A DNA stretch of 58,048 bases from an uncultured virus (IMG/VR IMGVR_UViG_3300037519_000101) (IMGVR_UViG_3300037519_000101), one strand, 5' to 3'; positions 3,641 through 57,219 are shown, counted from the first letter of the stretch. Program-made: numbers and translations. Notes: generated by a model from the sequence alone, not told the origin.

Positions 3641-6223
3641 TTATAAATATTCTACTTCACCTCCGTTAGCAATAAATTCTGCTAGTTCTTCTTCAGTCAT
3701 ATCAACTTCATCTCCCTCAGTATATCCACCATCTTGCATATAACCACCTCTTTGACCATATGCAAATCTACCCATAGTTTCTTGACCTGTTTCATTAGGT
3801 CTAAACATTCCTGTTTGTTGACCATAAGCTACATAATCTCCTTTGTCTTTATTAGTAGATGCTCCATAAAGTTTATCAGCATTAAAGTTATTTGCATACA
3901 TTTCATTTTGTTGCTTAGCTTGATCTAAACCACGCATTCCACTTGTAAATGCATCAATACCAGCATTCAACTTCATGTTAAAATTAGTACCGTTGAACTT
4001 TCTTTTTGTTTCTACATCTTGAGCAATTAAATCATCATCTTCTTTATTATCACTTACAGGACTTTCTCCTACTGCCTCTACAGCTCCTGATAAACTTTGA
4101 AAACTTTTTGGTAGACCTGGTATTCCTGCTGATGGTTGTATCGGTCCTAATGAAGCTGTAGCATCAGATGCCGGATTTACACCATTAGTAGGTGACTTAA
4201 CACCTATTTGAGCTTTTGGTAAACCACCATATCTTTTTTCATACTCAGCTTCTCTACCTTCTTGTTCCATTTGCATTCTCATTGCTTCTTCCTCAGCTTC
4301 TTTTTTTGTTGTTGCTTTTGATTTACCTGTAGGGAATCTATAATAAGGATTTAAACCTGGATCATCCATACTAGAAGAAGGTGTAAATTCTTCTCTAGTT
4401 TGTACTGCATTTTGTATTGTTGGTATATACCAATTGTCTATAAAATCACCTCTATCTGAATTATTTAATAATTGTGAATTAGGATTAAGATAAGTCTCAA
4501 GTACTCTTTGTTTTTTTAACATATTTTCTCTTTCCGCATTTGAAGTATTTATCATTTCAATATCTTCATCAGACAATCCTTCTGGTAATGCAGCTTCAGT
4601 AGTTCCATTATCCCACCATTCTGGAGTATCCATACCAATTTTAGTAGACCATGCTGCAGCATCTTTCATTGCTGCTTTAAGTTCTTTTTCTTTTTGCTTT
4701 CTCTCTTCCTCATCAACATTAACAAAATTAACACCTTTGTTAAATTCTTTTGTTTCATTTTCTAACTTAGCCCACTTTCTTTCTTGTCTTTTTTCTCTTC
4801 TAGACAATTTTTCATATTGCTCATCAGGTATGTTATACTCACGTTTTTTTGAATCATCATCATAAACATCTCTTTGTGGTTTATGATTTGGTTGAGGTCC
4901 TCTTTTAAGTTCATCAATATAATCTTCACCAACTTTACCAATGTTACCACTTTTAGAATAGTAATCAGTATATTTTTTAGGTCTCCCTAATATACCTCTC
5001 TTATGTACAGTTCTTGCTACAGGAGTTAAACCTGTCAAAGGATCTCTATACAAAGCACCAGTCTTAGCGTTATATGGATTATTAGCTGTAGTATATTTTT
5101 CTCCTAATAAGAAGTCACCAGCTTTTTGAATAAATCCTTTTTGTGCTTGAGGCATATCAAAACCACCTTGACTAAACATGTCAGGCTGATTCTCTCCTAT
5201 ATAACCACCTTGTTGTGCTATAGGTTCAAAGCTTCCCATTTGACTTGACTTCTGTCTGTTCTGAGCAAGTTCTTGTGCAGATTGCATTAACTCAGGATCA
5301 TTAGACTTCATCATCTTATCATAGATAGAATCTATAGCAGCTTTACTGGATACTTCTTTTAGTTTATCAGTGAATGAAGATTTAATTTTAGAAACTTCAT
5401 TTGTTAAAGTATCTTTTTTATTGCCTTTACCTATTTCAGTAGACTCTTCTGCATCACCACCTTCTTGTTTTTTAATAAGAGATAATACATTTTTTGTAAA
5501 GTTCTTTTTAGAACCTCCTTTTTTATAGTAACCATAACCATCTCCTAATGTATCCCATTCAATAGGTGTATAGTTACCTTCATATTCACTTATGTCTTTT
5601 CCAAAATCACTAAAGTCATCATCTTCAGTTTTACCTACAAAGTCCTCAAGTGAAATTAATCTGTCATTTAAATCATCACTAGCATTTTCTTCTTCACCTT
5701 CATTAGCTGATAATTGTTCATATGATAAAATTGGTCCACCATCTTGATATTCTTCTTCACTGTTAGCAATTACATTTGAGTCTTCTTCATCAGCATATGA
5801 ATTATAATAATTCATACCATCACTTGCAGCATCTTCTTCTTCAGTCTCTTGATTCTCTTGACCTACAGGTTGAAATTCAGACTGACCAATTTTAGATTCT
5901 TCAGCAGATCCTTCTTTAGTTTCTGGTTGCTCTTCTTCTTCTGGAGCTTCCATTTCTTGCATAACTTGAGTTAAAATAGGATATGCTACTTCTTTAGGAA
6001 TACCTTTGGAGATTAGTAGTTTGTATACTTCTTCCGGTTCCATTTGATTATCCAAAGCACCAGTTACATATTGCTTCAAAGCTTCTATTTGTTTTTCCTG
6101 CATAATATCTTCAGAAGATGTTTCTGCACCCATTTGAGCTTTCTTTAAAAACTGACCTGTTTTATTTATATATTCACCTTGTCCATTCGGAGCTTTGTAA
6201 ATTCTAACTGTTCTTCTTTCCAT
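3641..6223 (-). CDS. Putative virion cargo protein, acidic/low complexity (860 aa)
   Basis: Acidic low-complexity stretches, about 11 xxxGG/AQxG motifs, C-terminal EVDMTEEELAEFIANGGEVEYL module; position in the cargo cluster. Confidence 0.6.
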   Translation of the reverse strand: MERRTVRIYKAPNGQGEYINKTGQFLKKAQMGAETSSEDIMQEKQIEALKQYVTGALDNQMEPEEVYKLLISKGIPKEVAYPILTQVMQEMEAPEEEEQPETKEGSAEESKIGQSEFQPVGQENQETEEEDAASDGMNYYNSYADEEDSNVIANSEEEYQDGGPILSYEQLSANEGEEENASDDLNDRLISLEDFVGKTEDDDFSDFGKDISEYEGNYTPIEWDTLGDGYGYYKKGGSKKNFTKNVLSLIKKQEGGDAEESTEIGKGNKKDTLTNEVSKIKSSFTDKLKEVSSKAAIDSIYDKMMKSNDPELMQSAQELAQNRQKSSQMGSFEPIAQQGGYIGENQPDMFSQGGFDMPQAQKGFIQKAGDFLLGEKYTTANNPYNAKTGALYRDPLTGLTPVARTVHKRGILGRPKKYTDYYSKSGNIGKVGEDYIDELKRGPQPNHKPQRDVYDDDSKKREYNIPDEQYEKLSRREKRQERKWAKLENETKEFNKGVNFVNVDEEERKQKEKELKAAMKDAAAWSTKIGMDTPEWWDNGTTEAALPEGLSDEDIEMINTSNAERENMLKKQRVLETYLNPNSQLLNNSDRGDFIDNWYIPTIQNAVQTREEFTPSSSMDDPGLNPYYRFPTGKSKATTKKEAEEEAMRMQMEQEGREAEYEKRYGGLPKAQIGVKSPTNGVNPASDATASLGPIQPSAGIPGLPKSFQSLSGAVEAVGESPVSDNKEDDDLIAQDVETKRKFNGTNFNMKLNAGIDAFTSGMRGLDQAKQQNEMYANNFNADKLYGASTNKDKGDYVAYGQQTGMFRPNETGQETMGRFAYGQRGGYMQDGGYTEGDEVDMTEEELAEFIANGGEVEYL

Positions 6224-6281
6224 TTGTAAAGATTATAATTTAATATACTAAAAATAAATTTATTGTTTAAACTTTAAAAAT

Positions 6282-8486
6282 TTACTTAACATCCTCAACT
6301 ATGTAACCTTGTTTAATATAGTCTTGAATTTCTGCATGAGTTAAATCAGCAACAATACCACCTTTCTTCATTTGTTTAGCTTTTTGTTGTTTAGGCATGT
6401 TCATCAATGCTGCTCCAGTTATACCAACAGGTGCTAAAGCCCATGATCTGTTTATACCAGCAATTATGTTTCTTCTTGTTTTAGCACTTTGCCCTGCAGT
6501 TTGTGTATGACCAGTTAGCATTTCACCAATATCTTGCATACCTCTTGGCATATTACCTTTTCCTTGAACCATATGTTCTTCATTAACCCATTTGTTATAG
6601 TCATTAGCAAATAAATCAAAATCTTTTTCACTTATTGGTTCATGTTTAGATATACCATATTTATTATTCAAGTAATTTTTAATTCTATTAAATCTTACTT
6701 GCTGTTCATAGTCAGAACCTAAATAACCATCTTTATCAATTTTTTTACTAATTTTTAAGTTAGGGTAATTTTTGTACTTAGGCATTCCTTTAAAAGTGCT
6801 TTGATTTGCTGGAGATAAAGCATGTCCAATTTCATGATCTAAAACGTGCAAAGCCTCAGTTCTAGAACTTACCTTATCAGGGTTAACACCGGTAACATCC
6901 TTTGATTTCTTACCAAGAAACCATTTTCTATCTCCTCTTATATGACCTCCTGGATATTCAATATTTAAACCAAGATCAATGTCTGATTTTTTTAAATTAT
7001 TTATGTAACTATCTATATCTTTTTTAATCTGTTTAGTAGTTTCTCCTGTTACTGATTGTCTACGTTTGATGTAGTTGGGATGTGTAAGATATTCTAGATT
7101 TTGATTTATAAGTTGATGAACATCTTTTTCATTAATATCATAACCACGTGTTTGTTTAGTAGGTAAATTTTTAATATTTGGTCTTATACCAAAATCTTTT
7201 ACAGGAGTTTTTTGTAAAACATATTCTGCATCAGGATGTTCTGTTAATGATTTTGGCCAGTATTCATTTTGCAATGCATCATTATATGCAGTAACTTTTG
7301 AAAGTTTACTTGATTTATTTTGTGTCTTAGCTAATTTACCTAACTGTTTAAGACCTTTACCTGCTGCATTATACAAAGGAATAGCATCTAAAGCTGTATA
7401 CATATTTTCAGCAACGGCATCTACATAGTCAGAAACTTTACCAGACTTATTAGCTTTTTTCCAAGGTTCAGCAACTTTACCAGTTACTATATCAGTTAAT
7501 GCAGTACCAGCAAATTCTGAAGCTACTAGATTATTAATACTTGATCCAGGTAAACTTTTAATTAAAGACTTTTTAAGTCCAGCTCTACCTGCCTGAACTA
7601 ATGATGATTTAAGAGCATTACGCCCAAGAGAAGTTAAACCTTTTACTAAACCAACTGTACCTTTAAGTCCTGCACTTGTCATACCAATAGGTAATGTCCA
7701 AACATCATCTACTGATTGTAATGCACCATCATTCATTTCAATCTCTCTAGGATCAGGTTTATAATTTTCTTGAGATACAGAATTACTTTTTGGATAAGTT
7801 GTTGAAGCATCTTGTTTATAAAATACTTTACCATCTTTTGTTTTTACTTTATAATGAGTGATACCTTTTGAATCCTGTACTTTAGTTGTAATATTACCTT
7901 TCTTATCAGTATGTACACTTGTAGTTCCTACAGTACCATCATCACCAATATGAGTAGCAAATTTATCTTTAGCTCCACCTTTCTGAGCTTGATTAAGTTC
8001 TGGTACAGATATGTCTTCTACAATGAATCCACCTTTTCTGTATTCTTCTATTTCATCATCTGTAAGTTCTGCTTCTATATAACCTCCACCTTGAAAGTAA
8101 TCTACATTTGGATCATATACTCTTTTTGAGTAATCTTGGAATAAAGGACCTTTTTGCATGAGCTTATTCATACCCATTATACTCTTAGTCTTTCTCTTCT
8201 TTTTAGTTCCTCCTTTTTTCATTTGAGGATACTCATCTACATACTCTGCTCCAGGAAAAGTATAGTCTGCTCCCGGAAGCATTATCTTTCTCTGACCATT
8301 ATTAGCCACACCTAATACAGGATAACCTACTCCTTTCATAGTAATATCATTACTAGGAATTCTAGTAGGTAAACCAGGATACTTCCACTGACCCATTGGA
8401 TCAGTGATTATATCTTTTGGTTTCTTAGGAGCTTTAGCCTTGTCCAACTCAGCTGTAGCTTTAGATAGAGTCTTCTTGTTATACAT
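6282..8486 (-). CDS. Putative cargo protein with C-terminal zincin-like metallopeptidase domain (734 aa)
   Basis: HEIGH (HExxH) at 6822-6836 with downstream E (DYEQQVRF); N-terminal DPMGQWKYPG..PSNDITMKGV domain. Confidence 0.6.
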   Translation of the reverse strand: MYNKKTLSKATAELDKAKAPKKPKDIITDPMGQWKYPGLPTRIPSNDITMKGVGYPVLGVANNGQRKIMLPGADYTFPGAEYVDEYPQMKKGGTKKKRKTKSIMGMNKLMQKGPLFQDYSKRVYDPNVDYFQGGGYIEAELTDDEIEEYRKGGFIVEDISVPELNQAQKGGAKDKFATHIGDDGTVGTTSVHTDKKGNITTKVQDSKGITHYKVKTKDGKVFYKQDASTTYPKSNSVSQENYKPDPREIEMNDGALQSVDDVWTLPIGMTSAGLKGTVGLVKGLTSLGRNALKSSLVQAGRAGLKKSLIKSLPGSSINNLVASEFAGTALTDIVTGKVAEPWKKANKSGKVSDYVDAVAENMYTALDAIPLYNAAGKGLKQLGKLAKTQNKSSKLSKVTAYNDALQNEYWPKSLTEHPDAEYVLQKTPVKDFGIRPNIKNLPTKQTRGYDINEKDVHQLINQNLEYLTHPNYIKRRQSVTGETTKQIKKDIDSYINNLKKSDIDLGLNIEYPGGHIRGDRKWFLGKKSKDVTGVNPDKVSSRTEALHVLDHEIGHALSPANQSTFKGMPKYKNYPNLKISKKIDKDGYLGSDYEQQVRFNRIKNYLNNKYGISKHEPISEKDFDLFANDYNKWVNEEHMVQGKGNMPRGMQDIGEMLTGHTQTAGQSAKTRRNIIAGINRSWALAPVGITGAALMNMPKQQKAKQMKKGGIVADLTHAEIQDYIKQGYIVEDVK

Positions 8487-15715: not shown

Positions 15716-16293
15716 AATTCAAATTCATTATATGTTTTAAGAGCATTTTGGGTAAGTAATGCTTCCTTCCCCGCATAGTATACTTGTTGATATAGTTTTT
15801 TGATTTTTTTATTATTCTCTACTACTCTATACATATTCCAATTTTCAGGATATGATTTAGCAACAAGTCTTTTAAAATCTCTACATGCAACAAAAGTCCA
15901 ATACTCTCTATTTTTCATTTTATGTTTTAGTGCATTGCTTGTAAAAAATATCTTTGCTAACTTTCCGTCCGTAGCAAAATTATTATTATTCACTTCTACA
16001 CCATACTGTCTAGATTTAGAAAAATCAACATTTCTTTTTTTACTTTGTTGACATGTTCCTACAAAAAGCCATCCAATTTGATCAGGTAGTTGAACACCAT
16101 CTCTACTATCAACAACCATATTATACACTGTTCTATTAAATGTCTTTGTTATATTCTTTAACATGCTGTTTTCATACTTAGCATATCTAGGATACTTCTT
16201 TTTAAATCCATCAAAGAACTCTTTGTCTAAGAGATTAGATACTTCAGGTCTATATCTCGGTGCTGATAAATCAGGTGTCTTAAACTCTCTCAT
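15712..16293 (-). CDS. IHF/HU-like basic protein of the crAss-like tail module
   Basis: GVQLPDQIGWL and WTFVACRDFKRLVAK; basic; located before ring genes. Confidence 0.55.
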   Translation of the reverse strand: MREFKTPDLSAPRYRPEVSNLLDKEFFDGFKKKYPRYAKYENSMLKNITKTFNRTVYNMVVDSRDGVQLPDQIGWLFVGTCQQSKKRNVDFSKSRQYGVEVNNNNFATDGKLAKIFFTSNALKHKMKNREYWTFVACRDFKRLVAKSYPENWNMYRVVENNKKIKKLYQQVYYAGKEALLTQNALKTYNEFEL

Positions 16294-16322
16294 AATAATA
16301 TAGTAAAAATTAGTTATATTAG

Positions 16323-16330
16323 CAAATATA
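16323..16330 (-). promoter_or_regulatory. Bacteroidota-type -7 promoter element TATATTTG
   Basis: Matches TAnnTTTG, ~30 nt upstream of ATG 16293 and just after a terminator. Confidence 0.5.
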
Positions 16331-16335
16331 GCTAT

Positions 16336-16363
16336 AAAACAAAACCCCTACAAGTGCAGGGGT
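16336..16363 (-). terminator. Rho-independent terminator
   Basis: ACCCCTGC-ACTT-GTAGGGGT then TTTGTTTT. Confidence 0.75.
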
Positions 16364-16410
16364 CTGTCCGTAGTTGTAAGAATAAACCAACAAACTTCAA
16401 CTAACTAATA
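16336..16410 (-). ncRNA. Candidate 3'-UTR small RNA: hairpin with UUUGUUGGUUUAUU loop followed by an intrinsic terminator
   Basis: Stem TAGTTGAAG (16403-16395) / CTTACAACTA (16380-16371) with a 14-nt loop complementary to AAACCAACAAA at several start codons. Confidence 0.45.
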
Positions 16411-17055
16411 TCAAGGAATATCAAATGGTGTCAAAGGATGATTACCTGTAGCAGTCATAATTTTTTTAAGTTGTTGCATCATCAATCCTAGTACTGTTCT
16501 AAATTCTAAATAATGACTATACTCAGGAGTTTGATAATTTGTAAAATCTATACTATATGTATATGGTTGATCTGGTACATTTGGTCCCACTGGAATACTT
16601 ATTGTGTTTGTTTCTATACCTGTTTTTTTATTAGGATCTCCTGGAGGTAATAATGAATTTTGTATTTGCTCTCTTTTAGATCTAAAGTTTATAGATTTTA
16701 TAACAAAACCATCAGGTTGTCCATAATATAGACTACACATTGTAGTCAAGTTACTTAAAGAATTACATTTCTCATTAAGTAAACCTTCCGGTATAATTAT
16801 ATCTCCTGTAATAGGATCTTGATAACCAGGATCATAATAAAAATTATATGAAGCTAAAAAGTAATTATCAACAGCTGCTAACCAAGCATCATATGTTGCT
16901 CTTGCTGTTCCATATAAATCTTCATTTTCTGGAATATTTGTATTTTCCGTACAGGTATTTCCTGCTGCACCAATAAGACAATACTCTTCAATATCAAAGT
17001 TACAAACTCTTGGTCTGTGATTATTCCAAATTTCTATGTTCTTTATAAAACTCAT
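16411..17055 (-). CDS. Hypothetical protein, probably structural
   Basis: 214-aa ORF, last gene of the Cys-rich cluster. Confidence 0.55.
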   Translation of the reverse strand: MSFIKNIEIWNNHRPRVCNFDIEEYCLIGAAGNTCTENTNIPENEDLYGTARATYDAWLAAVDNYFLASYNFYYDPGYQDPITGDIIIPEGLLNEKCNSLSNLTTMCSLYYGQPDGFVIKSINFRSKREQIQNSLLPPGDPNKKTGIETNTISIPVGPNVPDQPYTYSIDFTNYQTPEYSHYLEFRTVLGLMMQQLKKIMTATGNHPLTPFDIP

Positions 17056-22430: not shown

Positions 22431-22625
22431 TTATTTATTTGCTGTGTATCTATCAGCACCCCAAACATTTTTGTTTACTGTTGGTGCTGTAGGGACTATT
22501 TGTTTTTTATCTTGTAATCCTTTTTCATAAAAGGCTAAACAACTTGAACAACAAGATGTTCCATTACTTGCTCTTCTCTTTTGACATCCGCAAGACATTT
22601 TTGCATTACAATTACTACAATTCAT
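22431..22625 (-). CDS. Small Cys-rich metal-binding protein (64 aa; start revised to 22625)
   Basis: MNCSNCNAKMSCGCQKRRASNGTSCCSSC; A-rich leader AAAACCAACAAAA precedes this ATG. Confidence 0.6.
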   Translation of the reverse strand: MNCSNCNAKMSCGCQKRRASNGTSCCSSCLAFYEKGLQDKKQIVPTAPTVNKNVWGADRYTANK

Positions 22626-22644
22626 TTTTGTTGGTTTTAAAGGT

Positions 22645-28580: not shown

Positions 28581-29597
28581 TTAAGAGTTCCAATATTTTT
28601 CACAAGCCATGTTCAAGTCTTTTAAAATATCCTCATTTAAAGGATTTTTTAAGTGCTCTAATACATCAGAAACATTCCTACCTAACAATGCATTAGTTTT
28701 GGTATGATAGATATAACCATCGGCCTTATTAACAATATACTTAAAAAATACGGAATCTCTAACAATTGATTTAATTTTTAATGTTTCCATATCTAAAGTA
28801 GCTACTTCCATAAATGTTTTAGCAGCTCTTTCTTTGTTGCTTTCACCACCTAAACCAGAAATGTAGTTATCCATATTTTCATAGATTACATCATTTGGTG
28901 TAGATTTTCTATATTGTGTACTGTTAATATCTACAACTTTTGCAATGTAGAATAACTTAGTACTGTTTTTGTCAAATAATTTTTGTAGTTCAGATAGAGC
29001 TTTGTTACGTAATTTTTTGTACTCTGTTCTTACCATTACAGTTTCCTCTTCTTTGTCTAAGTAAAACTTTGGTGGAACAGCTTTTGCTCTTGCATCTTCT
29101 AAACTTTTTGAAACTAATGAGAATCCCCCAGCTTCAATTGCATATAATTTAATTCTGTCATACGGATCCTTTGGATCTAAGAACAAAGGTTCATTACCAC
29201 ATGAAATAGAAATTCTATTCCAGAATTCAGAATTGTTTGGTCTTAGTAAAGTTACTTTAGCCCAAAATTCTTTATCATCAACATCAATAACATTAGCTGC
29301 TAGTTCTTGTTCTAACTCTGCAACTGCTGCTCTAATCTCTCTTACTCTAGCTTCTTTCTCTGCTGTAGGAAGTAATTTGATTTCTGGAGCAAACTCATTT
29401 AATCCAGTTACATATCTTACTACACCATTGTTATCTAAACAAGCTAGTTGTTCATTATGTGTTACCCCATCAAATAAGCTCATACCATAGTCTTCTAATC
29501 CCATGTTAGAAGCAGAGTTATCAAAGTAAGGTCTTACAGCAATAGCTGTTTTTTTAACTGAGCCTTTTCCGGTCTCAACCATTGTGAAATTTTCCAT
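28581..29597 (-). CDS. Conserved virion protein after the capsid gene (portal-vertex auxiliary protein-like)
   Basis: PNNSEFW..LFLDPKDPYD; synteny with crAss-like capsid module. Confidence 0.6.
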   Translation of the reverse strand: MENFTMVETGKGSVKKTAIAVRPYFDNSASNMGLEDYGMSLFDGVTHNEQLACLDNNGVVRYVTGLNEFAPEIKLLPTAEKEARVREIRAAVAELEQELAANVIDVDDKEFWAKVTLLRPNNSEFWNRISISCGNEPLFLDPKDPYDRIKLYAIEAGGFSLVSKSLEDARAKAVPPKFYLDKEEETVMVRTEYKKLRNKALSELQKLFDKNSTKLFYIAKVVDINSTQYRKSTPNDVIYENMDNYISGLGGESNKERAAKTFMEVATLDMETLKIKSIVRDSVFFKYIVNKADGYIYHTKTNALLGRNVSDVLEHLKNPLNEDILKDLNMACEKYWNS

Positions 29598-29631
29598 TGT
29601 TTTGTTGGTTTTTGTTTGTGTAAAATTAATT

Positions 29632-32597: not shown

Positions 32598-32687
32598 CTT
32601 GTTGGTTTTAGTTTATAATTTAATATAAGCAATAAACTTGAAAAATTTAAATACTTTTAAAAATTTTTGGGCACTATATAGCTAACC

Positions 32688-42223: not shown

Positions 42224-42535
42224 TTATGATCTTTTAAGTTTTCTTTCTGCTGTAGGAGAAGTTTGTTCCGCAGTTTCTTTTTCCTTTTTCTTTTCTTCAG
42301 GATCATCCTCACGGTCACTAGTATCTTGTTCTTGTTGTGCTGCCATAATGTTAGCCCACTGAATTTGAATAGTTGCTCTCTTAAATCTTGCTTCCTCAAT
42401 TTCAGTTAAGAACTTTTCATACTTTGCTTGTGACTCTAAGTAAGGTAATGAATCATCATAAAATGCTTTCATTTCTTCTTTTCTTGCAGCTAACTCCTCT
42501 TGAGTTAATTCTTGCTCTTCATGTTGGTTTGACAT
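42224..42535 (-). CDS. Coiled-coil hypothetical protein
   Basis: First gene after the TATCTTTG promoter element. Confidence 0.7.
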   Translation of the reverse strand: MSNQHEEQELTQEELAARKEEMKAFYDDSLPYLESQAKYEKFLTEIEEARFKRATIQIQWANIMAAQQEQDTSDREDDPEEKKKEKETAEQTSPTAERKLKRS

Positions 42536-50117: not shown

Positions 50118-50282
50118 CTATTCTGATACTACTTCTAAAGTAGGTTCAGTAGCTGGAACTAAACTGTGTAATACATTTAATGCTACCAATATTTGATTGG
50201 TATCTGCTAATGTATAAACACCTTTTACCGTAGCTGCATTCAATGCTTGCTCAATAGTTTTAACTGCGTCAGTTGGATTCAT
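50118..50282 (-). CDS. Small protein, 54 aa (not in ORF track)
   Basis: MNPTDAVKTIEQALNAATVKGVYTLADTNQILVALNVLHSLVPATEPTLEVVSE; A-rich leader; followed by a terminator. Confidence 0.65.
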   Translation of the reverse strand: MNPTDAVKTIEQALNAATVKGVYTLADTNQILVALNVLHSLVPATEPTLEVVSE

Positions 50283-50332
50283 GGTTTAAATTTTTTTGGT
50301 TTATATTTTTTGTAAATATAATAAATTTAAAC

Positions 50333-56394: not shown

Positions 56395-56678
56395 AATAAT
56401 TTATTTTCGGTTTTCTTTACTTTTAAAAAAAGTTCATCTAGTTGTCCTTCTGTTAATACACTGAAGTAACCTTGACTATCCTTTACAATATAATCATTAG
56501 GATTACACTTCTTAGGACCCAAATCAGTATGCACATATAATGTCAACTGCTTTGTATTAGCCGGTATAATAAACTCTGCTTTACTATTTGTAAATGTAAA
56601 CACAGAATCTCTTTCATCATCTATGTATTTTAACACATCAACATATGTAGGCTTACTCATATATCTTTCAGTCATCAT
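56391..56678 (-). CDS. Small phage protein of the KKP..V(E/D)..GDYI (PGDYG-like) family
   Basis: RYMSKPTYVDV..HTDLG..NPNDYIVK..GYF. Confidence 0.55.
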   Translation of the reverse strand: MMTERYMSKPTYVDVLKYIDDERDSVFTFTNSKAEFIIPANTKQLTLYVHTDLGPKKCNPNDYIVKDSQGYFSVLTEGQLDELFLKVKKTENKLL

Positions 56679-56902
56679 GCATCATATTTATTAGTTGTAA
56701 CATTCACAGACGGCAATTCTTCAGCTGCACCCTCTTCATCAAAGTCTCTAGCTAGTAAATCAAACTTTACCTTTTCTAATAAACCCACTATAACTGGAAT
56801 AGTAGATTTATCAACTCTCTGGAGTCTGATTTCAAATTTATCATCTGAATTAATACTGATTTCTACAAGGACTAGAGGTTCCTTTTTTTTACTCTTACTC
56901 AT
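56675..56902 (-). CDS. Hypothetical protein
   Basis: VIVGLLEKVKFDLL; first gene after the TATATTTG element at 56922. Confidence 0.7.
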   Translation of the reverse strand: MSKSKKKEPLVLVEISINSDDKFEIRLQRVDKSTIPVIVGLLEKVKFDLLARDFDEEGAAEELPSVNVTTNKYDA

Positions 56903-56921
56903 ACTTAGTTTGTTGGTTCCA

Positions 56922-57135: not shown

Positions 57136-57145
57136 GGGAGGGTTG

Positions 57146-57219
57146 CGCTTTTTCTAGGGCTCGAACCTAGGACCCCCAGATTAACAGTCTAGTGCTCTAA
57201 CCAACTGAGCTAAAAAAGC
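57146..57219 (-). tRNA. trnN: tRNA-Asn (GTT), CCA not encoded
   Basis: Cloverleaf GCTTTTT/AAAAAGC, GCTC/GAGC, CTAGA-CTGTTAA-TCTGG, CTAGG-TTCGAGC-CCTAG; discriminator G. Confidence 0.93.

What the first reader, a model, noticed from the sequence alone, without database searches (positions are those of the whole stretch)
16336..16410. Candidate phage small RNA whose hairpin loop is antisense to a motif at the start codons of multiple genes
Seen: just after the stop of 16411..17055 the minus strand reads TAGTTGAAG-[TTTGTTGGTTTATT]-CTTACAACTA (9-bp stem, one bulge, 14-nt loop), then an intrinsic terminator. The exact complement (AAACCAACAA[A]) lies within 5 nt upstream of the ATG of four minus-strand genes: the small Cys protein (22627-22637, 11 nt), the post-capsid gene (29601-29611, 11 nt), the scaffold gene heading the scaffold-capsid unit (32599-32608, 10 nt) and the first gene of the putative anti-defence operon (56907-56918, 12 nt). 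There are 9-nt matches in codons 2-5 of the 42535 gene (42522-42530) and in the leader of the 50282 gene (50296-50304). Inference: a 3'-UTR-derived, loop-seeded trans-acting sRNA that tunes translation of several operons. An alternative is that the motif is a protein-binding site or A/C-rich translation enhancer and the antisense copy is incidental.
Basis: partly seen in the sequence, partly recalled or inferred. Interest (0 to 1): 0.85.

Follow-up and report, generated by a model that had tools for sequence, protein, structure and literature searches.

The report
Phage hairpin complementary to gene-start motif
A small RNA hairpin at the end of a tail-gene message in an uncultured crAss-like phage carries a loop that is the exact complement of a short motif sitting at the start of several head and other genes, and both are kept across a large phage clade, which suggests an RNA-based control of protein synthesis that has not been tested at the bench.

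Summary
On the minus strand, 16403-16371 is a 9-bp hairpin with a bulge and the loop UUUGUUGGUUUAUU. An intrinsic terminator follows at 16362-16336. The complement AACCAACAA lies directly before four start codons.

The window is part of a crAss-like phage with SD-less leaders and TAnnTTTG promoters. The hairpin plus terminator occurs once in each of 83 of 83 related loci. It always sits right after the stop codon of a variable upstream gene. The loop core UUGUUGGU is invariant, and the stem changes while keeping its pairs.

AACCAAC sits next to the start codon of three genes in relatives:
- scaffold gene: 79 of 80
- 338-aa head-module gene: 32 of 33, often as two tandem copies
- small Cys gene: 24 of 30

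It is absent from the capsid gene leader (0 of 29) and is not enriched in the outgroup phage phi17:2.

Best reading (about 0.5): the 3'-UTR hairpin loop pairs with these initiation regions and tunes translation, most likely by repressing it. A discrete RNA, a regulatory effect and loop-leader covariation are all unshown. Coincidental complementarity, a DNA-level site and a recombination linker remain possible.

The parts
16395..16403 (-). 5' arm of hairpin (TAGTTGAAG)
   Evidence: homologous arm in 83 of 83 related loci
16381..16394 (-). hairpin loop UUUGUUGGUUUAUU; core UUGUUGGU invariant in relatives
   Evidence: (81 of 81)
16371..16380 (-). 3' arm of hairpin (CTTACAACTA, one bulged A)
16336..16362 (-). 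intrinsic terminator: stem CCCCTGC/GTAGGGG, loop ACTT, U-run; an A-rich stretch upstream can pair with the U-run
   Evidence: (4 of 8 pairs with compensatory changes)
16411..17055 (-). upstream gene (214 aa, no family hit) whose 3' UTR holds the hairpin; this position is occupied by different genes in relatives
16323..16330 (-). TATATTTG, Bacteroidota-type -7 promoter box for the downstream 193-aa gene
   Evidence: consensus and position from PMC9723704
22627..22637 (-). AAACCAACAAA before the ATG (22625) of the 64-aa Cys-rich protein gene
   Evidence: AACCAAC kept in 24 of 30 relatives
29601..29611 (-). AAACCAACAAA in the leader of the conserved 338-aa head-module gene (28581..29597), after the capsid gene terminator
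   Evidence: 32 of 33 relatives, 16 with two tandem copies
32599..32608 (-). AAACCAACAA one base before the ATG of the 424-aa gene between portal and capsid (putative scaffold)
   Evidence: 79 of 80 relatives
56908..56918 (-). AACCAACAAAC, 3 nt after a TATATTTG box, the predicted 5' end of the transcript of gene 56675..56902
   Evidence: same arrangement in 8 of 12 homologous loci
42522..42530 (-). AAACCAACA in codons 2-5 of gene 42224..42535 (weaker candidate site)
   Evidence: -11.1 kcal/mol
50296..50304 (-). ATAAACCAA in the leader of the 54-aa ORF 50118..50282. It matches only the clade-specific 3' part of the loop, so it is a weak candidate.

Best explanation
The element is the conserved 3' end of the phage's variable tail-fibre-region message. 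It is a 7-9 bp hairpin that displays the single-stranded loop (U)UUGUUGGUUU, followed after 6-10 nt by the intrinsic terminator. The loop is the complement of AACCAACAA. That motif is a gene-specific element in the very short 5' UTRs or intercistronic gaps, and sometimes the first codons, of the putative scaffold gene, the 338-aa head-module gene, a small Cys-rich protein gene and the first gene of a TATATTTG-driven operon. I infer that the hairpin pairs through its loop with these initiation regions, either as the 3' end of the full message or as a stable 3' fragment left after decay. The inferred effect is on ribosome loading, most likely repression by occlusion of positions about -13 to -2. 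That would set the output of the genes flanking the capsid gene apart from the capsid gene itself, whose leader lacks the motif. Shown: the structure, its conservation, the complementarity, and the position and gene-specificity of the motif. Inferred: that pairing happens, that it acts in trans, and the sign of the effect.
For: (1) All 80 loci encoding a relative of the downstream 193-aa protein (54-99% aa identity) carry the element. Model R1 finds exactly one sense-strand hit in 83 of 83 sources at 57-97 bits, and opposite-strand hits score <= 29 bits. (2) The core TTGTTGGT is present in 81 of 81 copies, 58 of them distinct versions. It lies in the loop of the minimum-energy fold in 56 of 58. 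(3) The stem varies but stays paired. Over 50 distinct sequences, 349 of 350 cells pair. Three positions show full series through wobble intermediates: UA19/UG27/CG4, AU28/GU19/GC2 and CG48/UG1/UA1. 59 of the 350 cells are G.U, which would be A.C mismatches on the other strand. Distant homologues use other stems around the same loop: GTCGTAG/CTGCGGC, GTCGTGG/CTACGGC and CCTGT/ACAGG. (4) The intergenic block is about 95% identical where the flanking upstream gene is only 56% identical in protein and has a different C-terminal domain. (5) AACCAAC is next to the start codon in 79 of 80 scaffold-gene loci (0 of 80 in a control region inside the gene), 32 of 33 338-aa-gene loci and 24 of 30 Cys-gene loci. 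Two copies occur in 29 of 80 and 16 of 33. (6) The motif is gene-specific: 0 of 29 capsid-gene leaders have CCAAC. (7) The conserved cores coincide: leader AACCAACA(A) against the loop complement AAACCAACAA. (8) Across 30 relatives the 9-mer counts are 151 sense, 55 antisense (about 29 of them the hairpin, 30 records minus G010 whose loop lacks the exact 9-mer) and 54/26 for the reversed control. (9) The outgroup phage phi17:2, with the same head-gene order, has one exact copy in 145 kb and none in its head-gene leaders. (10) In Bacteroides, a small RNA that anneals to an SD-less initiation region represses its targets (GibS; passages of PMC7366714).
Against: No discrete RNA, 5' end or level could be read, because the four metatranscriptome runs are kept as contigs. 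One contig (X3) bridges hairpin, terminator and the downstream gene, so read-through or DNA carry-over cannot be excluded. Loop and leader cores never vary, so there is no loop-leader covariation. The variable edge positions do not track each other. Most stem variation within the majority clade is one-sided transitions, which a DNA palindrome could also tolerate. In cofolding, the four targets gain -6.1 to -7.5 kcal/mol, but the capsid-gene control gains -6.6, so A/U-rich pairing is promiscuous. An 11-nt loop cannot form all 11 pairs without opening the stem. Record G020 keeps the hairpin while its scaffold and Cys leaders are degenerate. The relatives were found through the gene beside the hairpin, so the finding that all have it is partly by selection.
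Confidence: 0.5

Rival explanations
1. The two elements have independent functions. AACCAACAA is an initiation-region element read by a protein or by the ribosome (an enhancer or operator). The hairpin is kept for another reason, such as a protein-binding site, message stabilisation or terminator efficiency. On this view the complementarity is incidental.
For: The motif is A-rich and unstructured, as favoured in Flavobacterium initiation regions (A at -3, -6, -12, -13; PMC6847099 passages). It sits at a nearly fixed 1-2 nt from the scaffold ATG in 70 of 78 upstream copies. Tandem copies would suit a multimeric binder. There is no loop-leader covariation.
Against: The same paper reports no effect of C or G in the initiation region, so the invariant CC..C is unexplained. 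The capsid gene, expected to be the most expressed, lacks the motif in 29 of 29. The conserved cores of loop and motif coincide over 8-9 nt, which I estimate from composition to have well under 1% chance for one conserved loop (my estimate, not a tool result). Apart from the hairpin, antisense copies are at background level.
Confidence: 0.22
2. The pairing is in cis rather than in trans. The message that begins at the small Cys gene leader (motif) and ends at the hairpin brings its two ends together, to control translation or stability of the variable tail-fibre operon.
For: A TAAATTTG box lies upstream of the Cys gene. My scan found no terminator-like site between 22625 and 16365. In relatives the Cys gene lies 5-10 kb upstream of the hairpin on the same strand (coordinates).
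Against: The best-conserved motif copies (scaffold and 338-aa genes) are on other transcription units separated by terminators. The Cys-gene copy is the least conserved (24 of 30). G006 and G007 lack it but keep the hairpin.
Confidence: 0.1
3. The conserved stem-loop, terminator and promoter block is mainly a recombination linker. Its homology lets different tail-fibre cassettes be swapped in front of a conserved structural gene, and exchange keeps it uniform.
For: The element marks the exact boundary between a variable gene and a conserved gene. There are 41 different C-terminal decapeptides among the 66 of 80 loci for which an upstream ORF end could be called. The intergenic block is far more conserved than its flanks.
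Against: This does not explain why the loop is invariant while the stem changes with compensation. It also does not explain why the loop matches the leader motif. It is not exclusive of the best explanation.
Confidence: 0.1
4. This is a DNA-level site. AACCAACAA/TTGTTGGTT is bound as double-stranded DNA by a phage regulator in either orientation, at gene starts and about 50-60 bp upstream of the -7 box of the 193-aa gene's promoter.
For: At the 56902-type locus the motif keeps a fixed 3-4 nt distance from the TATATTTG box in 8 of 12 while its distance to the ATG varies. An inverted repeat around a spacer resembles an operator.
Against: At the 338-aa and Cys genes the motif lies in gaps with no promoter, right after a terminator or a stop codon. 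Its distance to promoter-like boxes differs between genes, but it is always within 0-13 nt of, or just inside, the coding start. In the hairpin the spacer is invariant and the arms vary, the opposite of an operator. 17% of stem cells are G.U.
Confidence: 0.06

Closest known systems
GibS and other base-pairing small RNAs of Bacteroides thetaiotaomicron (Ryan et al. 2020, PMC7366714; passages read)
   Same: A conserved single-stranded seed anneals to the SD-less translation initiation region of several mRNAs. The hosts lack Hfq and ProQ. UTR-derived small RNA candidates exist in the phylum.
   Different: GibS is a host, intergenic RNA with its own promoter and a long 5' seed. Here the element is phage-encoded, has no promoter of its own, presents the seed in a hairpin loop, and targets one short shared motif. 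Nothing has been tested experimentally.
3'-UTR-derived small RNAs that share the parent message's terminator (class as defined in PMC7366714 methods; enterobacterial examples such as CpxQ and SroC are recalled, not looked up)
   Same: The position is directly after a stop codon, the terminator is shared, and there is no room for a promoter.
   Different: A processing site and a stable fragment, which define the class, could not be examined.
Loop-seeded antisense RNAs of phages and plasmids, e.g. the c4 RNA of P1/P7, whose loops pair with sites covering a ribosome binding site on the same transcript
   Same: Hairpin loops act as the recognition elements against initiation regions of phage genes. 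The RNA is made by processing rather than from its own promoter.
   Different: Those systems have one target operon in temperate coliphages that use SD sequences. Here a shared motif sits on at least four units in crAss-like phages. The loop begins UUUG, which fits the YUNR U-turn pattern known from antisense loops (recalled), but in a U-rich loop this is weak evidence.
Phage small RNAs described so far (review PMC12197685, term look-ups only; PAK_P3 sRNA1/2, PMC4933390 passages; non-coding RNAs of crAss-like phage phi14:2, preprint 10.1101/2020.03.07.982082 passages)
   Same: These are abundant late or constant non-coding RNAs from intergenic regions of virulent phages, with function unknown.
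   Different: The review text has no occurrence of 'capsid', 'lytic phage', 'virulent phage' or 'Bacteroid'. PAK_P3 sRNAs have single 11-nt matches inside coding regions. The phi14:2 RNAs come from other, long intergenic regions. None is reported to match a shared leader motif.
Kozak-like A-rich initiation regions of Flavobacterium johnsoniae (Baez et al. 2019, PMC6847099; abstract and passages)
   Same: Leaders are SD-less, A-rich and unstructured, with A favoured at -3 and -6.
   Different: That rule is positional and A-only, with C and G showing no effect. The phage motif has invariant C residues, is gene-specific and is absent from the capsid leader.

Membership tests
Trans-acting base-pairing small RNA (3'-UTR-derived) | Discrete, stable RNA species with defined 5' and 3' ends | not testable with these tools
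   Four metatranscriptome runs hold parts of the region, but only as contigs. No start or end table was produced.
Trans-acting base-pairing small RNA (3'-UTR-derived) | Lies in a 3' UTR and shares the intrinsic terminator of the parent gene, with no promoter of its own | tested here: met
   The stop codon ends 7-27 nt before the loop core in the 66 of 80 loci for which an upstream ORF end could be called. The terminator is kept with compensatory changes. The upstream gene is variable, so no conserved promoter is possible.
Trans-acting base-pairing small RNA (3'-UTR-derived) | Conserved, accessible single-stranded seed | tested here: met
   The core is invariant in 81 of 81. It is unpaired in the minimum-energy fold of 56 of 58 versions.
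Trans-acting base-pairing small RNA (3'-UTR-derived) | Conserved complementarity to target mRNAs at functional sites | tested here: met
Trans-acting base-pairing small RNA (3'-UTR-derived) | Covariation between seed and target, or an effect shown with compensatory mutations | tested here: inconclusive
   Neither core varies. The edge positions do not co-vary. One leader A-to-G change in G037 stays pairable as G.U.
Structured RNA hairpin (as opposed to a DNA palindrome) | Pairs kept through compensatory and wobble changes on one strand only | tested here: met
   349 of 350 cells pair. Three positions show UA-UG-CG-type series, and 59 cells are G.U. Other stems occur in L423, L460 and L485. Caveat: on the MAFFT and model alignments, helix 1 shows mostly one-sided changes, and RNAalifold did not call it.
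Intrinsic (Rho-independent) terminator | G+C-rich stem-loop followed by a U-run, kept in relatives | tested here: met
Any Rfam family | Score at or above the family's gathering threshold | tested here: not met
   At gathering threshold, only a tRNA was found in the whole window. The best sub-threshold matches on the element are rnk leader at 25.8 against 55 bits and MicC at 25.5 against 90 bits.
rRNA-complementary translation enhancer | Motif complementary to a conserved, accessible 16S rRNA stretch of the host phylum | tested here: not met
   TTGTTGGT occurs in 7 of 80 Bacteroidota-type 16S loci and the 9-mer in 3 of 80, all near position 245. That this position is helix 11 is recalled, not tested.
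crAss-like phages (Crassvirales-type head module) | Major capsid protein of the Crass_capsid family | tested here: met
   PF23898 at 99.2 bits against a cut-off of 27. Portal and head-protein PHROGs also hit. Gene order is shared with phi17:2.

The most novel reading that the evidence does not exclude
The motif and the hairpin form a phage-private addressing system for translation in hosts whose ribosomes ignore Shine-Dalgarno sequences. A single phage RNA loop recognises a shared 'zip code' on selected phage messages. It either switches them off together at a set time, or works as an adaptor that brings them to ribosomes, in effect a trans-acting, virus-encoded substitute for the SD/anti-SD contact.
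Probability: 0.07. Interest if true: 0.95.

Novelty: new variant of a known kind. Interest (0 to 1): 0.72.

Why it matters
crAss-like phages are among the most abundant phages of Bacteroidota, yet almost nothing is known about how they control protein synthesis after transcription. Their hosts lack both Shine-Dalgarno recognition and the usual RNA chaperones. This finding gives a deeply conserved pair of complementary elements: one hairpin loop, and one motif on the start regions of specific head and other genes but not the capsid gene. That makes a concrete, testable case for RNA-based control within and between phage operons. If it holds, it would be the first such regulator in this phage group. 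It would also explain how genes on one message get different outputs, and it would supply a compact control part for engineering expression in Bacteroidota. If the complementarity turns out to be incidental, the leader motif itself is still an unexplained, sequence-specific start-region signal in an SD-less system.

Tried and rejected
1. 16S rRNA complementarity was rejected. I scanned for 16S loci with a published 16S probe target. Only 7 of 80 loci hold the 8-mer and 3 of 80 the 9-mer.
2. Rfam gives nothing at threshold.
3. I looked for cultured relatives. There is no DNA match in GenBank phages. The 338-aa and 193-aa proteins have no tblastn match. The capsid protein is only 24-28% identical to its best hits. 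None of 387 candidate stretches in GTDB genomes encodes a relative.
4. RNA evidence: the four metatranscriptome runs were laid, but only contigs are held, so nothing can be said on ends, strand or level.
5. Loop-leader covariation is uninformative.
6. RNAalifold on the MAFFT alignment called only the terminator. The covariance model did not re-register the window clade's slipped stem, so that clade's compensatory changes rest on my structure-based reading.
7. Cofolding energies do not separate targets from the capsid-leader control.
8. I tried to identify the target proteins. Pfam, PHROGs and PDB gave no hit for the 338-aa, 424-aa, 64-aa and 75-aa proteins. A fold of the 338-aa protein reached only pLDDT 64 and pTM 0.44 and was not searched further.
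9. My recollection that the PAK_P3 sRNA2 targets ribosome binding sites was wrong according to the paper's text.
10. I considered an invertible DNA segment bounded by the inverted 11-mers and dropped it. All 83 copies have the same orientation and intact arms.
11. Earlier findings of this scan: none on record.
12. A literature search for crAss plus small RNA terms returned only unrelated papers, because the term also matches 'crassa'. The statement that no such regulator is in print for crAss-like phages therefore rests only.

Full report
**What is at the coordinates.**
Read on the minus strand, gene 16411..17055 stops at TGA 16413-16411. Seven bases later comes a hairpin:
- 5' arm TAGTTGAAG, 16403-16395
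- 14-nt loop TTTGTTGGTTTATT, 16394-16381
- 3' arm CTTACAACTA, 16380-16371, with one bulged A

After a short spacer there is an intrinsic terminator: CCCCTGC-ACTT-GTAGGGG at 16362-16345, with a T-run to 16336. A TATATTTG box follows at 16330-16323, and the ATG of the next gene is at 16293.

RNAfold returns exactly these two hairpins at -24.9 kcal/mol, z = -3.9, with 0 of 200 shuffles as good.

The 9-mer AACCAACAA, the complement of the loop core, occurs 7 times in the window against 1.0 expected.
- Four of the five gene-strand copies lie directly before start codons, at 22625, 29597, 32597 and 56902.
- The fifth (37770) and one antisense copy (21660) are inside coding sequence.
- The other antisense copy is the loop.

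Duplex energy with the loop is <= -10 kcal/mol for 5 of 53 initiation regions. Shuffled loops average 0.64, and 3 of 300 shuffles reach 5. On this window alone it is moderately beyond chance.

**What the window is.**
All genes run on the minus strand, and G+C is about 32%. Start codons are preceded by A-rich stretches without Shine-Dalgarno sequences. TAnnTTTG boxes stand after terminators. That box is the -7 element of Bacteroidota promoters, placed at -12 to -5 (PMC9723704, passages).

The 539-aa protein matches the Pfam family Crass_capsid at 99 bits against a cut-off of 27. PHROGs give portal and head protein hits. Gene order matches Cellulophaga phage phi17:2.

The window's own assembly is not held. 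Relatives are IMG/VR contigs of 112-136 kb when complete, two of them with terminal repeats. No close cultured relative was found, and no copy was found in GTDB genomes. This is an uncultured clade of crAss-like phages. Its host phylum is inferred from promoter and leader style.

**The hairpin in relatives.**
A search with the downstream 193-aa protein returned 98 relatives, of which the best 80 were kept (54-99% identity). Every one has the hairpin, terminator and promoter block in front of the gene.

With the window there are 81 copies in 58 distinct versions, and all 81 contain TTGTTGGT. A covariance model built from them finds one sense-strand hit in each of 83 of 83 sources (57-97 bits). 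It finds no second copy in the 58-kb window. On the opposite strand it gives only weak hits of <= 29 bits, on the terminator palindrome.

In the two relatives whose upstream gene is only 56% identical and carries an extra Fib_succ_major domain, the intergenic block is still about 95% identical.

Of these, 48 carry the downstream box, and several more are divergent true members whose downstream gene starts with the same peptide.

**Is it an RNA structure?**
The loop core lies in the loop of the minimum-energy fold in 56 of 58 versions. The stem sequence differs between clades:
- GTTACAG/CTGTGAC
- GTTGCAG/CTGTAAC
- GTTACGG/CTGTAAC
- GTCGCAG/CTGTGGC
- GTCGTAG/CTGCGGC
- GTCGTGG/CTACGGC
- CCTGT/ACAGG
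- in the window's clade, TAGTTGAAG/CTTACAACTA in a slipped register

I tallied 50 distinct sequences aligned to the model, leaving out the window clade, L423 and five opposite-strand rows. Of 350 stem cells, 349 are standard pairs. Three positions run through full compensatory series: UA19/UG27/CG4, AU28/GU19/GC2 and CG48/UG1/UA1. Fifty-nine cells are G.U. These wobble pairs would be A.C mismatches on the other strand, so the structure belongs to the message strand.

The caveats need stating. On the plain alignments most helix-1 changes are one-sided. RNAalifold called only the terminator. The shuffle controls of the count of structure pairs are inflated by relatedness. The terminator itself shows clear compensation, with 7 of 12 pairs changed on both sides.

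**It is a 3' UTR, not a gene of its own.**
An upstream ORF of at least 60 aa could be called in 66 of 80 loci. In these, its stop codon ends 7-27 nt (mostly 9-17) before the loop core, so the hairpin starts within a few bases of the stop. The upstream proteins end in 41 different decapeptides. There is therefore no room for, and no conservation of, a promoter. If a short RNA exists, it must arise by processing or by decay down to the hairpin.

**The leader motif.**

| Gene (window coordinates) | Relatives with AACCAAC near the start | Full 9-mer | Two copies |
|---|---|---|---|
| 424-aa gene between portal and capsid, putative scaffold (no family hit) | 79 of 80 | 71 of 80 | 29 of 80 |
| Control stretch inside that gene | 0 of 80 | not counted | not counted |
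| 338-aa gene after the capsid gene | 32 of 33 | 30 of 33 | 16 of 33 |
| 64-aa Cys-rich gene | 24 of 30 | 16 of 30 | 1 of 30 |

Position details:
- At the 424-aa gene, the upstream copy ends 1-2 nt before the ATG in 70 of 78 cases. The second copy, in codons 3-6, occurs in two reading frames (23 and 4), so it is kept as nucleotides and not as a peptide.
- At the 338-aa gene, the two tandem copies fill the gap between the capsid terminator and the ATG.
- At the Cys-rich gene, the motif fills the roughly 20-nt gap after the preceding stop codon.
- At the 56902-type gene, homologues were found in only 12 of 30 records. Eight of the 12 have TATATTTG, then 3-4 nt, then (A)ACCAACAA. By the -12 to -5 rule this puts the motif at the predicted first bases of the transcript, while its distance to the ATG varies.

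The motif is gene-specific. The capsid gene leader has no CCAAC in 29 of 29 relatives where its start was found.

Over 30 relatives the 9-mer occurs 151 times on the structural-gene strand and 55 times on the other. About 29 of the 55 are the hairpin (30 records minus G010, whose loop lacks the exact 9-mer). The reversed control gives 54 and 26.

Phage phi17:2, with the same head-gene order, has one exact copy in 145 kb. It shows no excess at one mismatch (28/34 against 25/32) and has no copy in its head-gene leaders.

**RNA level or DNA level?**
The motif's one constant is closeness to a start codon. Its relation to promoters differs between genes: it is at the predicted +1 at one gene, about 12 nt downstream of a TAnnTTGY-like box at another, and has no promoter at all at two intercistronic sites. 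So it acts as part of the message.

In the hairpin, the invariant part is the spacer (the loop) and the arms vary. That is the reverse of a protein operator. A DNA-level reading is therefore unlikely (about 0.06).

**Do the two belong together?**
The information profiles coincide. The leaders conserve AACCAACA(A), and the complement of the loop conserves AAACCAACAA. Both are present in all 30 paired genomes except that G020's scaffold leader is degenerate. They are also present in three more distant genomes, and both are missing from the outgroup.

The known A-rich rule for Flavobacterium start regions assigns no role to C (PMC6847099). It therefore does not explain the invariant C residues or the absence of the motif from the capsid leader.

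This is my estimate, not a tool result. What is missing is covariation, because neither core varies. The edge positions do not track each other.

**How it most likely works (inferred).**
The loop nucleates pairing with the unstructured motif at about -13 to -2, and in many relatives also at +8 to +16. This is within the ribosome's footprint, so ribosome loading is blocked or altered.

Small-RNA repression at SD-less start regions has been shown in Bacteroides (GibS, PMC7366714). The scaffold-type and 338-aa genes flank the capsid gene on the same strand, and only they carry the motif. This would allow different outputs from neighbouring genes.

The sign of the effect, the acting form (full message or 3' fragment) and any protein helper are unknown. 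I put this reading at about 0.5. The alternatives are:
- independent functions with incidental complementarity: 0.22
- cis end-to-end pairing of the tail-fibre message: 0.10
- a recombination linker (not exclusive): 0.10
- a DNA site: 0.06

**Expression data.**
Four metatranscriptome runs, labelled three freshwater and one marine, hold 10-32% of the sampled words of the region. When laid, they give only contigs at depths of 3-7. One contig covers 16145-16406, across terminator and hairpin. One stops at 16362. One ends at 16294, one base before the ATG of the 193-aa gene. Contigs cannot show ends, strand or level, so this neither supports nor refutes a discrete RNA.

**Comparison with what is known.**
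The element works like a loop-seeded antisense or 3'-UTR-derived small RNA. It meets the structural and comparative features of that kind, but the defining expression and effect features could not be tested. It matches no Rfam family.

In the papers I could search, phage small RNAs are mostly from temperate phages of Proteobacteria. The review PMC12197685 has no occurrence of 'capsid', 'lytic phage', 'virulent phage' or 'Bacteroid'. The only crAss-like transcriptome text I read reports other non-coding RNAs of unknown function and promoters used by the host polymerase. I could not see the supplements of that preprint, and its promoter lists might bear on the boxes described here.

I rate the finding as a new variant of a known kind. 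It is of clear interest because it is deeply conserved, gene-specific and directly testable.

Noticed in passing
window 16294-16312 (minus strand) and the same place in L025-L104: A second conserved box, TTTTTA(G/C)TATATTA(A/T)T, abuts the ATG of the 193-aa gene in nearly all relatives, downstream of the TAnnTTTG box. One metatranscriptome contig ends at 16294, one base before the ATG. This may be a very short or absent leader, or a second promoter type.
   Followed up: partly
window 32609-32660 (minus strand); L105-L184 positions about 340-400: The scaffold-type gene is preceded in the whole clade by a conserved block, CAAGTTTATTTTGTATATTAAAGTATAAAC. It contains TATTTTGT, which fits the TAnnTTGY variant box described for Flavobacterium psychrophilum (PMC9723704).
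   Followed up: partly
G007 (record behind L033), positions about 4235-8246 and 126409-130423: This 135.9-kb record holds two copies each of the scaffold-type and 338-aa genes (100% and 90-96% identical to the window). It may be a chimeric or concatenated assembly of two related phages.
   Followed up: no
L005 3001-4830 (G004) against window 16411-17055: The gene before the hairpin is 214 aa in the window but 609 aa in G003/G004, with a C-terminal Fib_succ_major domain (PF09603, 249 bits). Among the 66 of 80 relatives for which an upstream ORF end could be called, this position ends in 41 different ways. It is likely a swappable receptor-binding cassette.
   Followed up: partly
alignment A4, helix 1 columns 13-58, 14-57, 16-55: Almost every stem haplotype keeps at least one G.U wobble, and its position moves between clades (UG+AU, UA+GU, UA+AU+GU). 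This could mean selection for a stem that opens easily, or it could simply reflect shared descent.
   Followed up: no
window 16371-16376 and relatives (ACAAC after or within the 3' arm): CAAC(AA) just 3' of the hairpin is kept in about 90% of versions and is complementary to GUUG in the loop. In the window clade it pairs instead with the 5' arm. A pseudoknot or alternative fold that hides the seed is possible.
   Followed up: partly
window 16351-16356 (terminator loop CACTTG): The terminator loop is conserved (CACTTG, CACTCG or CACTAG) and lies about 20 nt upstream of the TATATTTG box, where a -33 TTTG element would be expected. Terminator and promoter may overlap.
   Followed up: no
window 57145-57219: A tRNA-Asn (GTT) gene lies on the minus strand (ARAGORN, and Rfam at 69.5 bits). 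AAC, an Asn codon, occurs twice in the leader motif; this is probably irrelevant.
   Followed up: no
L245-L324 (Bacteroidota 16S loci), about position 245: GTTGGT occurs there in 45 of 80 and TTGTTGGT in 7 of 80. This is a partial look-alike of the loop core inside what I recall to be helix 11. It is not conserved enough to matter.
   Followed up: yes
window 28581-29597: The 338-aa protein is among the best-conserved proteins I compared across the clade (57-100% identity). It has no Pfam, PHROG or PDB relative. The AlphaFold model is mostly helical but of low confidence (pLDDT 64).
   Followed up: partly
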